Below are positions 1 through 48,809 of a stretch of 48,816 nt of DNA, piece after piece. Location: positions 1 to 48,816 of the forward strand of contig JAQVMQ010000003.1 of assembly GCA_028703535.1 (NCBI GenBank). Reading direction: 5' to 3'. Origin of the DNA: Candidatus Omnitrophota bacterium. GTDB taxonomy: Bacteria > Omnitrophota > Gorgyraeia > Duberdicusellales > 4484-171. Position 1 is the stretch's first letter; the number at the start of each line of letters is the position of its first letter. The position numbers and the translations under genes are program-made. The notes beneath the pieces were generated by a model. The model saw only the letters and a program-made list of their open reading frames with translations, did not search any database and was not told the origin of the DNA.

Positions 1-774
1 GCTGAATATTTACTTCGTTACGATACCCGCCACCTCCATAAACAAGAGTGATAGCTGAAGAGATATGAGATTTTGAGCCTTTATCAAAGCAAAGCCGCAG
101 GTATCGGACTCATATGGAAAACGCTGAGTATTTACTTCGTTACGATACCCGCCACCTCCATAAACAAGAGTGATAGCTAAAGAGATATGAGATTTTGAGC
201 CTTTATCAAGGCAAAGCCGCAGGTATCGGACTCATATGGAAAACGCTGAATATTTACTTCGTTACGATACCCGCCACCTCCATAAACAAGAGTGATAGCT
301 AAAGAGATATGAGATTTTGAGCCTTTATCAAAGCAAAGCCGCAGGTATCGGACTCATATGGAAAACGCTGAATATTTACTTCGTTACGATACCCGCCACC
401 TCCATAAACAAGAGTGATAGCTGAAGAGATATGAGATTTTGAGCCTTTATCAAGGCAAAGCCGCAGGTATCGGACTCATATGGAAAACGCTGAATATTTA
501 CTTCGTTACGATACCCGCCACCTCCATAAACAAGAGTGATAGCTGAAGAGATATGAGATTTTGAGCCTTTATCAAAGCAAAGCCGCAGGTATCGGACTCA
601 TATGGAAAACGCTGAGTATTTACTTCGTTACGATACCCGCCACCTCCATAAACAAGAGTGATAGCTAAAGAGATATGAGATTTTGAGCCTTTATCAAGGC
701 AAAGCCGCAGGTATCGGACTCATATGGAAAACGCTGAATATTTACTTCGTTACGATATCCGCCACCTCTATAAA
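1..774. repeat. 122-bp non-coding tandem repeat array: 6 full copies plus a degenerating 7th; truncated by the window start
   Basis: Unit starts at 1,123,245,367,489,611,733. Copies are identical except for A/G differences at unit offsets 6, 57 and 88. Copy1=copy5 and copy2=copy6. The period is not a multiple of 3, and there is no ORF >=60 aa in any frame across 1..1005. Confidence 0.95.
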
Positions 775-802
775 AATCCCGTAATACGGGATTTTTATGG
801 AG
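766..802 (+). terminator. Strong hairpin / intrinsic-terminator-like element closing the repeat array
   Basis: 16-bp stem 766-781 / 787-802 (ctctataaaaatcccg / cgggatttttatggag, one G-U pair) with loop taata. The GC core tcccg/cggga is followed by TTTTT on the + strand, with an A-run on the other side, so it is formally bidirectional. Confidence 0.6.
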
Positions 803-1005
803 CAATCGAAAATCGATAATAGAGAAATTAAGAGAGATTTTAGATTGCTGTCAAATTTCGAATTTCGATTAGTGGTATTTGGTTTTAAGATATTTAAAAC
901 TAGAAACTAATTATTTTCGCAATATATAACTTTATGCGATATTGAGTGTGGTTCCTGTAAATATAAAATTAGTATATTAATTCAGTTTTCTGTTAAAATA
1001 AATAC

Positions 1006-17289: not shown

Positions 17290-17592
17290 ATGTCTAATGA
17301 GAAAGCCGATGATTTTACTGCAGAAAGTGAAATAAAGGCTCTTCGTGACGAACAATTACAACGGATAGCCGTTCTAAATGACTATGTAACTGGTTATACA
17401 AAAGAGAACTTATATTCCGATCTAAAGCTCTATTATGATGAAGAGGTAGAATTTAATTTTAAAAAATTTGATAATTTTTTTAATGATGTATCTTTTCTCG
17501 AAAAGCTTGTGAATACAGCTAAACAAAAAAATACTCATCCCGTACTTGAATTTATACAATATATTTTTATTCAATCTGTTAAAGATGATTAG
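17290..17592 (+). CDS. Hypothetical protein
   Basis: 100-aa ORF that overlaps the next gene by 8 nt. Confidence 0.35.
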   Translation: MSNEKADDFTAESEIKALRDEQLQRIAVLNDYVTGYTKENLYSDLKLYYDEEVEFNFKKFDNFFNDVSFLEKLVNTAKQKNTHPVLEFIQYIFIQSVKDD

Positions 17593-18676
17593 AGCGATAT
17601 TCTCATTGTTTTTTATTTCAAGTTTTTTTTTATCTCTGGCTTTTGCCGATATCATTTATTTGAAAAATGGCAAATCGGTTAATGGTATTATTGAGTCTGA
17701 AACTGCCGAGCATCTTATTGTCAATATCGGTCCGGGTGAGATACAGGTAGACAAAGATAATATAAATACTTTCATTAAAGAAGAAAATACGGATCTTGAA
17801 AAACTTTGGGAAAATAAATATATTTTTAATAAAGATTTTGTTCCTGAAAGATTTTCTGAAACAATAGATAATTTAAATTTATTGAAAAACCAAAGAATAG
17901 CCGCAATCTCGGCCAAGCAGCAAAAAGAAAAATTAAAAAAATCACAATATCTATTAGATAAAAAGATGTATAGTATTCGTAAAGAACTTGATAGATTAAG
18001 TCAAAAATTATCAACTATGATATTAAAAGATAATCAGCAAGAATATTCGGCAATTGTCGAGAGATTCTATTCTTTACAAGCAGAACTTCAACTGGCCGAC
18101 AGTAGATCCCTTCAGATAAAGGAGGAGTTGCCGGTTTTGAATCAAGCTATCTCAAAATACATATCTGAACTCAATTTGTTTGAGTCGGATCTTGACGAAA
18201 AGGCCAAAAACTTAACGTCCTATAAAGAACAGAATTTCGTTGATGCTGTTAATTCTCAACTTGCGGTTTTTCATGAAGATTTTACGGCACATATACAAGA
18301 ATATACTATGCGCAACGACAATATAATAGTTCGCGGAGTTATTAATAATACTGTTGTCTGTGAGTTTGTCGTAGATACAGGCGCATCAATTGTTTTACTC
18401 CCGTATAAAGTAGCTGACAGGCTTTCTTTGATAAATAGTAACGGTCAGACTTTTGAAGCTACCTTGGCAAATGGGGAAAAGGTACCTGCCCAACTTGCCA
18501 TCTTAAAGAAATTACAGGTTGGGGAGTCATATGCAGAGAACGTTCAGGCAGGTATATTATTAGACAGGACTAGAGATTACCCTGGTTTGTTAGGTATGTC
18601 ATTTCTTAAAAACTTTATTATTAAAATAAATTATAACGAATCAAAGCTGCAGCTTGAGGATTTTACTCCGGAATAA
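17585..18676 (+). CDS. Retropepsin-like aspartic protease with signal peptide and coiled-coil region
   Basis: VVDTGASIVLL (D-T-G-A) in the C-terminal domain. I prefer the ATG at 17585 (MIRAIFSLFFISSFFLSLAFA signal peptide) over the ORF-track TTG at 17546. Confidence 0.65.
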   Translation: MIRAIFSLFFISSFFLSLAFADIIYLKNGKSVNGIIESETAEHLIVNIGPGEIQVDKDNINTFIKEENTDLEKLWENKYIFNKDFVPERFSETIDNLNLLKNQRIAAISAKQQKEKLKKSQYLLDKKMYSIRKELDRLSQKLSTMILKDNQQEYSAIVERFYSLQAELQLADSRSLQIKEELPVLNQAISKYISELNLFESDLDEKAKNLTSYKEQNFVDAVNSQLAVFHEDFTAHIQEYTMRNDNIIVRGVINNTVVCEFVVDTGASIVLLPYKVADRLSLINSNGQTFEATLANGEKVPAQLAILKKLQVGESYAENVQAGILLDRTRDYPGLLGMSFLKNFIIKINYNESKLQLEDFTPE

Positions 18677-48735: not shown

Positions 48736-48809
48736 GCGGGCGTAGTTCAGTGGCAGAACTCCAGCTTCCCAAGCTAGCGACGTCGGTTCGATTCCGATCG
48801 CCCGCTCCA
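48736..48809 (+). tRNA. tRNA-Gly (anticodon CCC), CCA encoded
   Basis: Hand-folded cloverleaf: acceptor gcgggcg/cgcccgc, D stem gttc/gaac, anticodon loop ttCCCaa, T arm gtcgg-ttcgatt-ccgat, 3-prime tcca. Confidence 0.9.

What the first reader, a model, noticed from the sequence alone, without database searches (positions are those of the whole stretch)
1..802. Non-coding 122-bp tandem array running off the window edge and closed by a strong hairpin: candidate multi-copy structured RNA locus
Seen directly: the unit starts at 1,123,245,367,489,611 and 733. The six full copies are identical except for A/G transitions at unit offsets 6, 57 and 88. Copy1=copy5 and copy2=copy6, which implies a recent 488-bp (4-unit) higher-order duplication. 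The period of 122 is not divisible by 3, every frame on both strands has stops, and the ORF track has nothing across 1..1005, so the array is not a protein repeat. Each unit carries internal complementarity: offsets 21-30 cgatacccgc against 97-106 gcaggtatcg (9/10 pairs), 49-54 tgatag against 81-86 ttatca, and two competing partners for ctcatatgga (63-69 atatgag or 34-39 tccata). The 7th copy degenerates near 774. Its cctctataaa segment becomes the 5-prime arm of a 16-bp stem (766-781/787-802) with a GC core followed by T5. Nothing converges from the right, because the next gene is on the + strand. The simplest reading is therefore that the hairpin terminates a + strand transcript made from the array. 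I do not recognise the unit as any known RNA family or mobile-element end.
Basis: partly seen in the sequence, partly recalled or inferred. Interest (0 to 1): 0.72.

Follow-up and report, generated by a model that had tools for sequence, protein, structure and literature searches.

The report
Tandem repeats trailing the tmRNA gene
The 122-bp array is the tail of the tmRNA (ssrA) gene that lies just off the window edge: each unit re-copies the last 18 bases of tmRNA, the same layout as the long-known but unexplained "tRNA-linked repeats" of E. coli, here attached to tmRNA in an uncultured Omnitrophota bacterium.

Summary
The window misses the key context. Contigs of the same organism show a bona fide tmRNA gene directly upstream, and the array starts inside its 3' end. 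Unit offsets 21-38 (CGATACCCGCCACCTCCA) are the last 18 nt of tmRNA. The terminal partial unit carries a decayed copy of that end fused to the terminator hairpin. This is the architecture of E. coli tRNA-linked repeats (TLRs, e.g. tyrT/rtT), which I checked on K-12, including a 10-nt "anti-core" complementary to the core. The 122-nt unit folds no better than shuffled sequence and matches no Rfam family. It has no relatives outside this near-clonal species, so an independent structured-RNA family is not supported. Plus-strand co-transcription ending at the hairpin is plausible but inferred. Similar tmRNA-linked repeats, some in arrays, occur in at least 44 other genomes across many phyla. I found no description of these. 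Verdict: a real, hypervariable tmRNA-linked repeat array, a new variant of a known kind. Its function is unknown and its copy number is not resolved by the short-read-type assemblies available.

The parts
1..732 (+). Six full 122-bp units of the tmRNA-linked repeat array. The array continues leftwards off the window to the ssrA gene.
   Evidence: TRF and unit comparison. In L001, L064, L065, L067 and L068 the same units follow directly on the tmRNA gene.
21..38 (+). 'Core': CGATACCCGCCACCTCCA, identical to the last 18 nt of tmRNA (5 nt of T-loop, T-stem 3' strand, acceptor 3' strand, discriminator). It recurs at 143-160, 265-282, 387-404, 509-526 and 631-648.
   Evidence: Alignment of the Rfam tmRNA model to L001 1275-1645. 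Core positions.
97..106 (+). 'Anti-core' GCAGGTATCG, complementary (9/10) to the first 10 nt of the core. It recurs at 219, 341, 463, 585 and 707. Pairing with the next core leaves an 8-nt 3' tail.
   Evidence: the repeat finder. The same layout, a perfect 10-nt anti-core, is present in the E. coli tyrT TLR units. Enrichment over shuffles is p = 0.015 for this unit.
733..774 (+). Terminal partial unit. It consists of the last 20 nt of the spacer, a decayed core CGATATCCGCCACCTCTA (753-770, two C>T changes) and TAAA. I read it as the displaced, probably ancestral, ssrA 3' end.
   Evidence: With the undecayed C at position 769 the hairpin stem would be fully Watson-Crick (sequence inspection).
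766..802 (+). Terminator-type hairpin (17-bp stem, GC core, U-run) that overlaps the decayed ssrA end. It is the likely terminator of the ssrA transcription unit.
   Evidence: strand folding: -26.2 kcal/mol, z = -5.6. There is no other terminator-like site in 1-1100. The upstream ferredoxin gene has its own terminator at L001 1147-1185.
942..969 (+). Promoter-like site (TTGAGT-16-TAAAAT) for the next gene, a flavodoxin at 1006-1497. It marks the start of the next transcription unit and is not part of the array.
   Evidence: Flavodoxin Pfam families are listed.

Best explanation
The array is a tmRNA-linked repeat of the same type as the E. coli tRNA-linked repeats (TLRs).

Shown: a normal tmRNA gene (ssrA) lies immediately left of the window. 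The repeat begins inside its T-loop. Every unit consists of the last 18 nt of tmRNA plus 104 nt of unrelated spacer. After the last unit comes one more, decayed, copy of the tmRNA end fused to a terminator hairpin.

Inferred origin: the gene once ended at that decayed copy and its hairpin. A segment carrying its own copy of the tmRNA 3' end was then inserted at the T-loop, leaving an att-type short direct repeat. Unequal recombination or slippage, first between the 18-22-nt repeats and then between whole 122-bp units, has since expanded and reshuffled the array. That would explain why unit order and number differ between otherwise 99.9-100% identical populations.

Inferred operation: RNA polymerase starting at the ssrA promoter reads through all units to the hairpin at 766-802, so the array is the 3' external spacer of the tmRNA precursor. 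It must be cut off at the first core, because CCA is not encoded (CCTCCA|TAAAC). By analogy with TLRs, each later core, possibly presented in the core/anti-core helix with an 8-nt tail, could be cut the same way and release RNAs of about 122 nt. Nothing here indicates that these have a function of their own.
For: The tmRNA gene is at L001 1275-1642 (ARAGORN with tag peptide; Rfam RF00023, 166 bits, E = 1.7e-67), and the array starts at 1625.

The same ssrA-to-array or array-to-hairpin junctions appear in 11 or more independent assemblies from ENA, NCBI, JGI and Logan.

Flanks differ at only 0-12 positions in 10.7 kb, while unit order differs between assemblies.

The spacer is unrelated to the tmRNA body or to the flanks.

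The ssrA unit is bracketed by terminators, and no promoter-like site lies in the array.

The TLR definition (18-19 bp identical to the 3' end of the upstream stable-RNA gene, 1-5 copies per locus, co-transcribed and processed) comes from PMC8144298. I re-derived the architecture on E. coli K-12 tyrT-tyrV: 178 bp x 3.1, a 19-nt core, a final lone core and a 10-nt anti-core.

The ssrA neighbourhood (ferredoxin/PFOR/SurA-like genes) is conserved in other Omnitrophota, so this is the native ssrA.

The arrangement recurs. In a saturated scan, 44 genomes have a full ssrA followed by truncated 3'-end copies 110-138 nt downstream. Five of these carry two or more near-identical units, including cultured Halomonas koreensis. 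In Onishia taeanensis the flank after the second copy repeats the unit.
Against: No transcript data are available, so co-transcription and processing are inferred from layout and from the E. coli analogy.

There is no sequence similarity to E. coli TLRs or to Rfam rtT.

The upstream gene is tmRNA, whereas the published TLR description covers tRNA and rRNA genes.

Copy number (3.2 in L001, 6.3 or more in the window) cannot be fixed from these assemblies. The L001 contig name (k141) indicates a 141-mer de Bruijn assembly, barely longer than one unit.

The insertion-scar origin lacks an integrase anywhere in the window parts I scanned (for 1-12.3 kb; for 13-34 kb) or next to six comparator loci. 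The unit-unit junction also lacks the symmetric GCGGG arm expected of a tyrosine-recombinase core.

In Halomonas koreensis each unit carries its own terminator, so there the downstream units are probably not transcribed. This shows that such arrays can exist as purely DNA-level products.
Confidence: 0.72

Rival explanations
1. The array is a site-specific recombination scar or miniature cis-mobilizable element. The 122-bp unit would be a cargo-less attP-like module left by, or mobilised in trans by, an ssrA-targeting integrase. The array would then grow by integrase-mediated attL x attR exchange between sister chromosomes rather than by homologous recombination. This is compatible with the best explanation as an account of origin. 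It is a rival only as an account of how the array is maintained.
For: The identity block with ssrA starts in the T-loop (CGATA) and runs to 4 nt past the discriminator. That is the signature of tDNA-integrating elements, as described for Islander (PMC4383910) and for the Dehalococcoides 20-bp ssrA direct repeats with T-loop insertion (PMC3146451).

The displaced copy is decayed and sits on the native terminator.

Across the ssrA-linked comparator loci, breakpoints cluster at 1, 5 or 8 nt upstream of CCCGCC.

Three distant Omnitrophota share the junction TTA|CGAT and a TATCGGA motif.

In L084 the successive mini-units have unrelated spacers, as repeated independent events would give.
Against: There is no integrase in the scanned parts of the window or downstream of six comparator loci.

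The 104-nt 'island' is far below the 2-kb floor of Islander, and about half the roughly 250 bp quoted for attP.

The junction lacks the inverted GCGGG core arm.

No donor element with this spacer was found in genome, viral, metagenome, phage or plasmid collections.

E. coli TLR cores also begin in the T-loop, so that feature is not specific to integrases.
Confidence: 0.3
2. This is the first reader's reading: each unit is a copy of a functional, independently folded small RNA (a multi-copy structured-RNA locus). The 21-30/97-106 helix and the inner hairpins would be selected features.
For: The core/anti-core helix is present in every unit, is rarer than chance (p = 0.015), and is mirrored in E. 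coli TLRs.

Some TLRs are processed RNAs that bind Hfq and CsrA (PMC8144298).

An unrelated tmRNA-linked unit in eight Acidobacteriaceae genomes is as conserved as tmRNA itself (0.80 against 0.83, with flanks at 0.51-0.59). It shows G-U-containing helices and 4 compensatory pairs, with 0 of 500 shuffles reaching the observed value.
Against: Unit MFE z-scores run from +0.18 to -0.61 in three phases and on both strands.

There is no Rfam match, and no promoter-like site in the array.

The only variation is three A/G sites with no compensatory pattern.

All available copies come from one near-clonal species, so conservation cannot be assessed.

Other Omnitrophota units share only short motifs.
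Confidence: 0.12
3. The array is an assembly artefact: a single or double copy was inflated by a de Bruijn-graph loop at a contig end.
For: The array sits at the contig edge in the window and in almost all other contigs. Unit 1 equals unit 5 and unit 2 equals unit 6, as a loop traversal would give. The only spanning contig has just 3.2 units.
Against: Unit-to-unit junction sequence is present in independent assemblies from different samples and pipelines.

At least five distinct unit haplotypes exist (AGA, GAG, AAA, AGG, AAG).

Analogous arrays occur inside long contigs and in isolate genomes of other taxa.

The array itself is therefore real. Only its exact copy number and unit order are uncertain.
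Confidence: 0.04

Closest known systems
tRNA-linked repeats (TLRs) of Escherichia coli, e.g. the 178-bp x 3.14 repeats distal to tyrT-tyrV (rtT/rttR RNA) and rrA/rrB/rrF after 5S rRNA (Egan & Landy 1978 and Rudd 1999, as cited in PMC8144298; Stenum et al. 2021, PMC8144298)
   Same: The repeats sit directly downstream of a stable-RNA gene on the same strand. Each repeat ends with 18-19 nt identical to the 3' end of that gene (18 nt here). The array begins inside the gene's T-loop and ends with one extra lone core. Copies are tandem. A 10-nt anti-core complementary to the start of the core leaves an 8-nt tail. No function is known. All of this was checked on K-12.
   Different: The upstream gene is tmRNA, not a tRNA or rRNA. 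The host is an uncultured Omnitrophota bacterium. The unit is 122 bp, not 178 or about 150 bp. There is no sequence similarity and no Rfam rtT hit. Copy number is probably higher than the 1-5 per locus reported. There is no embedded ORF like tpr. Transcription and processing are untested.
Displaced tDNA/ssrA 3' fragments flanking genomic islands (Islander principle, PMC4383910; Dehalococcoides ssrA islands with 20-bp direct repeats, PMC3146451) and cis-mobilizable elements that keep att sites but no integrase
   Same: The ssrA gene is intact and followed by direct copies of its 3' end. The breakpoint lies in the T-loop. The copy furthest from the gene is the decayed one. Tandem arrangement occurs at the same locus.
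   Different: The 'islands' are 104 bp, mutually identical and carry no genes. There is no integrase. The length is far below any described island or CIME. The unit-unit junction lacks a symmetric core.
3' external transcribed spacer RNAs of tRNA operons (e.g. 3'ETS-leuZ, cited in PMC8144298)
   Same: The RNA would be a by-product of stable-RNA precursor processing.
   Different: There is no evidence here of a discrete product or a target. 3'ETS-leuZ is not a repeat and carries no copy of the tRNA end.

Membership tests
tRNA-linked repeats (TLR class) | Located immediately downstream of a stable-RNA gene, in the same orientation and operon | tested here: met
   The array starts within the 3' end of ssrA (L001 1275-1642 with the array from 1625; also L064, L065, L067, L068). 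Caveat: the gene is tmRNA, which the published TLR description (tRNA/rRNA) does not mention.
tRNA-linked repeats (TLR class) | 18-19 bp at the 3' end of each repeat are identical to the 3' end of the upstream gene | tested here: met
   The 18-nt sequence CGATACCCGCCACCTCCA is identical in all six units. The E. coli reference has a 19-nt core.
tRNA-linked repeats (TLR class) | One to several tandem copies per locus, closed by a final lone core | tested here: met
   There are 6.3 or more units in the window, 3.2 in L001 and 4.3 in L002. The terminal decayed core is at 753-770.
tRNA-linked repeats (TLR class) | Transcribed with the upstream gene and released by processing at the repeated 3'-end sequence | not testable with these tools
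   Only the layout is available: no promoter-like site or terminator lies inside the array, and the hairpin lies after it. RNA-seq or end mapping is needed.
tRNA-linked repeats (TLR class) | Sequence or structure homology to E. coli TLRs (Rfam rtT RF00391) | tested here: not met
   No rtT hit appeared even at E <= 10. The resemblance is architectural only, so this is an analogue or new variant, not a homologue.
Genomic island in a tmRNA gene (Islander definition) | An intact tDNA plus a displaced 3' fragment downstream in direct orientation | tested here: met
Genomic island in a tmRNA gene (Islander definition) | An integrase gene between the tDNA and the fragment | tested here: not met
   The intervals are 104 bp with stops in all frames. 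No integrase family was found among the genes of 1-12.3 kb or in 20 ORFs between 13 and 34 kb. ORFs between 34 and 48 kb were not scanned.
Genomic island in a tmRNA gene (Islander definition) | Length of 2-200 kb | tested here: not met
   The unit is 122 bp, and the whole array is under 1 kb in the window. The criterion comes from PMC4383910.
Any curated RNA family (Rfam 15) | A covariance-model match | tested here: not met
   Only chance-level hits (U7, MIR9555, isrD) appeared, at E = 0.7-8. Comparator arrays also have no family over their units.

The most novel reading that the evidence does not exclude
tmRNA-linked repeats could be a widespread, previously undescribed class. This would be a module of about 110-140 nt that ends in a copy of the tmRNA 3' end, often carries an anti-core, is sometimes amplified into arrays, and is conserved within lineages. 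In Acidobacteriaceae the unit is as conserved as tmRNA and shows compensatory pairs. On this reading the module is a functional processed RNA or processing or recombination signal shared in principle with E. coli TLRs. The Omnitrophota array would then be an active member, and comparative genomics across phyla could finally reveal what TLRs do.
Probability: 0.2. Interest if true: 0.7.

Novelty: new variant of a known kind. Interest (0 to 1): 0.5.

Why it matters
TLRs have been known since 1978 and, apart from three 5S-linked members, still have no known function or agreed origin. They have been studied essentially only in E. coli and its relatives.

This locus shows the same architecture attached to tmRNA in a deep-branching uncultured phylum. 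A single pattern scan also turned up dozens more tmRNA-linked examples across Acidobacteriota, Actinomycetota, Verrucomicrobiota, Planctomycetota, Myxococcota, Gammaproteobacteria and others. The phenomenon is therefore general, and it can now be studied by comparison: conservation, covariation, breakpoints and copy-number dynamics.

There are practical consequences too. Such arrays break short-read assemblies at ssrA, can mislead island-finding tools that use tDNA fragments, and act as hypervariable strain markers.

Tried and rejected
1. Protein repeat or frameshifted gene. All six frames have stops in each unit, so this is rejected.

2. Known RNA family. Rfam at gathering and at E <= 10 gave nothing credible.

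3. Spacer derived from the tmRNA body or local flanks. Local alignment scores are no better than shuffles.

4. A donor element or other copies of the unit. There were no exact-pattern hits in genome contigs (36-mer), viral contigs or metagenome contigs. blastn against phages and plasmids found no match. The three viral hits to the 18-nt core were two phage tmRNA-type genes and one hit with no RNA gene called, with unrelated flanks.

5. Close relatives for covariation. Flavodoxin homologues reach at most 64% identity and SurA-like homologues at most 38%. No shared 8-mers turned up in GTDB representatives. The junction pattern TTACGATNCCCGCCACCTCCA in metagenomes gave only 4 single-copy matches with no tmRNA nearby, which I take to be chance hits.

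6. An integrase nearby. None was found in the scanned window ORFs or downstream of six comparator loci.

7. The 4-unit higher-order repeat as firm evidence of a recent 488-bp duplication. It was not adopted, because L002, L006, L001 and L064 show other unit orders and assembly loops could mimic it.

8. Many of the 120 pattern hits are not ssrA-linked. Examples are the Streptomyces loci, where the second copy is the one preceded by a full T-arm, the 15-bp coding-type repeats in L111 and L192, and loci without tmRNA such as L141, L145 and L149. These were left out of the counts.

Full report
**1. The observation**

- Tandem Repeats Finder reports a single array at 1-774 with period 122, 6.3 copies, 97% matches and no indels.
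- The six full units differ only by A/G at offsets 6, 57 and 88. Units 1 and 5 are identical, as are units 2 and 6.
- Every reading frame on both strands is closed within each unit. The first listed ORF starts at 1006.
- The 10-nt inverted repeat CGATACCCGC/GCAGGTATCG is in every unit.
- The seventh copy follows the consensus to offset 42 (window 774) with two C>T changes and then diverges completely.
- The hairpin at 766-802 is very stable: -26.2 kcal/mol, z = -5.6, and no shuffle out of 200 is as stable.
- A 23-mer of the unit occurs nowhere else in the 48.8 kb window.

**2. What the window hides**

I looked up contigs that encode exactly the flavodoxin of 1006-1497. This returned seven loci of the same organism.
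- One of them, L001, runs 2.2 kb further left.
- In L001, ARAGORN calls a tmRNA at 1275-1642 with tag ANNNLFAGVAPVPAYS. Rfam's tmRNA model scores 166 bits, E = 1.7e-67.
- The repeat begins at L001 1625, inside that gene.
- Unit offsets 21-38, CGATACCCGCCACCTCCA, are the last 18 nt of tmRNA: five T-loop bases, the 3' strand of the T-stem, the 3' strand of the acceptor stem with the G3-U pair, and the discriminator A. CCA is not encoded.
- A second look-up with the upstream ferredoxin gave six more contigs. In the four that reach the gene's end, tmRNA runs straight into the same units, and every contig breaks at or within the array.
- Altogether, 11 or more independent assemblies from ENA, NCBI, JGI and Logan show either the ssrA-to-array junction or the array-to-hairpin junction.

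The array is therefore real. Its length is not resolved.
- The one spanning contig has 3.2 units, and its name (k141) indicates a 141-mer assembly, barely longer than a unit.
- The window has 6.3 or more units, L002 has 4.3 and L006 has 3.9, with different orders of five unit haplotypes.
- Outside the array these contigs differ from the window at 0-12 positions in up to 10.7 kb.
- Either the array evolves much faster than its flanks or the assemblies traverse it differently.
- For the same reason, the 'unit 1 = unit 5, unit 2 = unit 6' pattern is not firm evidence of a higher-order duplication.

**3. Anatomy**

The layout is: ferredoxin terminator (L001 1147-1185), then ssrA, then [core + 104-nt spacer] x n, then a decayed core, then the hairpin, then the flavodoxin promoter-like site (window 942-969), then the flavodoxin gene.
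- No promoter-like or terminator-like site lies inside the array.
- The 104-nt spacer is unrelated to the tmRNA body or to either flank.
- The terminal core (753-770, CGATATCCGCCACCTCTA) forms part of the 5' arm of the hairpin. With the undecayed C at position 769 the stem would be fully Watson-Crick. I therefore read this copy plus the hairpin as the ancestral end of the gene, now displaced by the array (inference).

The organism is an Omnitrophota bacterium, according to source names.
- Its nearest SurA-like homologue is only 38% identical, so no close relatives exist in the databases.
- In four other Omnitrophota loci, ssrA lies beside a SurA-like gene, and three of them also carry the ferredoxin or PFOR genes. 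This is therefore the native ssrA.
- Two of those relatives (L061, L062) have a plain ssrA end.

**4. Is the unit a structured RNA?**

On its own evidence, no.
- In three phases and on both strands the 122-nt unit folds no better than dinucleotide shuffles, with z from +0.18 to -0.61.
- No Rfam family matches even at E <= 10.
- The three variable sites carry no compensatory signal.

**5. What it resembles**

The architecture matches the tRNA-linked repeats (TLRs) of E. coli.
- There are 22 such sequences at ten loci, with one to five per locus. [quoted passage not shown]
- They were first seen as the '178 bp repeated 3.14 times' after tyrT.
- They are co-transcribed and processed. Their function is unknown, except that the 5S-linked rrA/B/F bind Hfq and CsrA. 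The authors of that study propose that the repeated end is the RNase E processing signal (PMC8144298).

I re-derived this on K-12.
- tyrV is followed by 3.1 units of 178 bp.
- Each unit ends in AATCCTTCCCCCACCACCA, the last 19 nt of tRNA-Tyr, starting in the T-loop.
- The array is closed by one extra lone core, which is exactly the layout seen here.
- Each E. coli unit also contains a perfect 10-nt inverted copy of the start of the core (GGGGAAGGAT/ATCCTTCCCC). This corresponds to the window's GCAGGTATCG/CGATACCCGC, and in both cases an 8-nt 3' tail is left.

There is no sequence homology. The window array is an architectural analogue attached to tmRNA, not a homologue.

**6. The alternative frame: an integration scar**

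Several features also fit elements that integrate into tRNA and tmRNA genes (PMC4383910; PMC3146451).
- The identity block starts in the T-loop and runs just past the gene end.
- A decayed displaced copy lies on the far side.

Other features do not fit.
- There is no integrase in the genes of 1-12.3 kb or in the 20 ORFs I scanned between 13 and 34 kb.
- The 'island' is 104 bp.
- The unit-unit junction lacks the symmetric GCGGG arm.
- No donor element was found in any collection.

I keep site-specific insertion as the likeliest origin of the first short direct repeat. I do not take it as the explanation of the array's present behaviour.

**7. The phenomenon is not unique to this organism**

In 44 of those loci, a copy preceded by a complete T-arm, i.e. 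the ssrA 3' end, is followed by truncated copies.
- I confirmed the tmRNA gene with Rfam in the ten such loci I tested.
- These genomes include Acidobacteriota, Actinomycetota, Verrucomicrobiota, Planctomycetota, Myxococcota, Clostridia, Eisenbacteria, Halomonadaceae and two more Omnitrophota.
- The breakpoints cluster at 1, 5 or 8 nt upstream of CCCGCC.

Five of these loci carry arrays of two or more near-identical units.

| Locus | Taxon | Array |
|---|---|---|
| L162 | Eisenbacteria | 5 x 124 bp |
| L083, L093 | Acidobacteriaceae | 3 x 112-114 bp |
| L155 | Halomonas koreensis DSM 23530 | 3 x 110 bp |
| L190 | Terriglobia | 2 x 127 bp |

- In Onishia taeanensis (L165) the flank after the second copy repeats the 116-bp unit.
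- The Omnitrophota contig L079 ends inside its second unit.
- Downstream genes at six of these loci are ordinary.

The three Omnitrophota units share the junction TTA|CGAT and a TATCGGA motif.

In eight Acidobacteriaceae genomes the 3' two-thirds of the unit is as conserved as tmRNA itself.
- Pairwise identity is 0.80 for that part of the unit and 0.83 for tmRNA, against 0.59 and 0.51 for the flanks.
- The consensus fold has invariant G-U pairs and four compensatory pairs, with 0 of 500 shuffles reaching the observed value. This is a small sample, and the structure was derived from the same alignment.

By contrast, Halomonas koreensis units each contain a full terminator, so there the downstream units are probably silent.

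An anti-core is significantly present in 8 of the 44 comparator units, as well as in the window unit and in E. coli tyrT.

I found no paper describing tmRNA-linked repeats of this kind. The absence holds only for the library searched.

**8. Verdict**

- It is the repeated 3' trailer of the tmRNA gene, a tmRNA-linked repeat of TLR type.
- It probably originated from an insertion at the T-loop. It is expanded and reshuffled by recombination between units, and probably transcribed through to the hairpin.
- An independent structured-RNA function is not supported for this unit. It cannot be excluded, given the TLR precedent and the conserved Acidobacteriaceae analogue.
- It is a new variant of a known but poorly understood kind, and I rate its interest as moderate.

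Noticed in passing
L074-L193 (genome contigs), e.g. L162 800-1640, L083 2373-2725, L093 4380-4735, L155 4649-4990, L190, L165, L079 2496-2674, L101 4655-4810: Many genomes from many phyla have a full ssrA gene followed by one or more truncated direct copies of its 3' end 110-138 nt apart. Several form arrays of near-identical units. The scan saturated at 120 loci, so the true number is larger.
   Followed up: partly
L083, L093, L097, L117, L119, L122, L138, L150 (Acidobacteriaceae MAGs), about 90-105 nt after ssrA: A conserved ssrA-linked unit (..GAGGTCCTTCGC..GCTCAGGATTTCGCCTGCGGGCTCAGACGCCCGC..GGCTCAA|GTTCGACTCCCGCC) is as conserved as tmRNA, while both flanks are at random level. It shows G-U-containing helices and 4 compensatory pairs. 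No Rfam family covers it.
   Followed up: partly
L037 764-1112 (-) and 1353-1702 (+), Acidimicrobiales MAG DASZHS010000049.1: Two full-length tmRNA genes with slightly different tags (AEPQLALAA and AEQPQLALAA) are arranged divergently 240 nt apart.
   Followed up: no
L058 4235-4426 (-), Spirochaetia MAG JBBRCZ010000003.1: The ssrA gene has its own terminator and is followed 174 nt downstream by a second copy of the last 17 nt of the gene. This is a single-unit version of the same layout.
   Followed up: no
L084 6449-6812 (-), Acidimicrobiia MAG: Three successive mini-units (114-123 nt) follow ssrA, each closed by a copy of the 3' end. Their spacers are unrelated to one another, as if produced by separate events rather than by duplication.
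   Followed up: no
L077, L081, L082, L085, L087, L109, L127, L142 and other Streptomyces loci: Two copies of CCCGCCNCCTCCA lie about 129 nt apart. In L085, L087, L109, L127 and L142 the second copy is the one preceded by a full T-arm, so the first may lie inside the tmRNA gene. ARAGORN called no tmRNA at these sites in my containment test.
   Followed up: no
L071 (IMGVR_UViG_3300013233_000195) and L072 (IMGVR_UViG_3300013126_000151): These viral contigs carry tmRNA-type 3' ends. L071 sits beside a cluster of 10 tRNA genes. L072 is called as a permuted tmRNA.
   Followed up: no
window 801-870: Just after the hairpin there are further inverted repeats (AGCAATCGAAAATC/GATTTTAGATTGCT and AATCGAAAATCGAT.../...TTCGAATTTCGATT) rich in ATCGA, a motif that also resembles the T-loop sequence. 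Their role is unknown.
   Followed up: no
window 17546-18673 (+): A 376-aa protein carries a retropepsin-like aspartyl protease domain (gag-asp_proteas/Asp_protease_2), next to a PilZ protein and a type IV pilus/secretin cluster (about 18.7-34 kb).
   Followed up: no
window 48736-48809 (+): A tRNA-Gly(CCC) gene lies 7 nt from the right edge of the window. The other end of the contig therefore also stops at a stable-RNA gene.
   Followed up: no
L149 1415-2165 (-), Halomonas litopenaei; L145 502-945 (-); L141 3803-4380 (-): Tandem arrays carry the same 13-nt tmRNA-like core (units of about 122, about 108 and 218 bp), but Rfam found no tmRNA gene within the 8-kb locus. Their relation to ssrA is unclear.
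   Followed up: no
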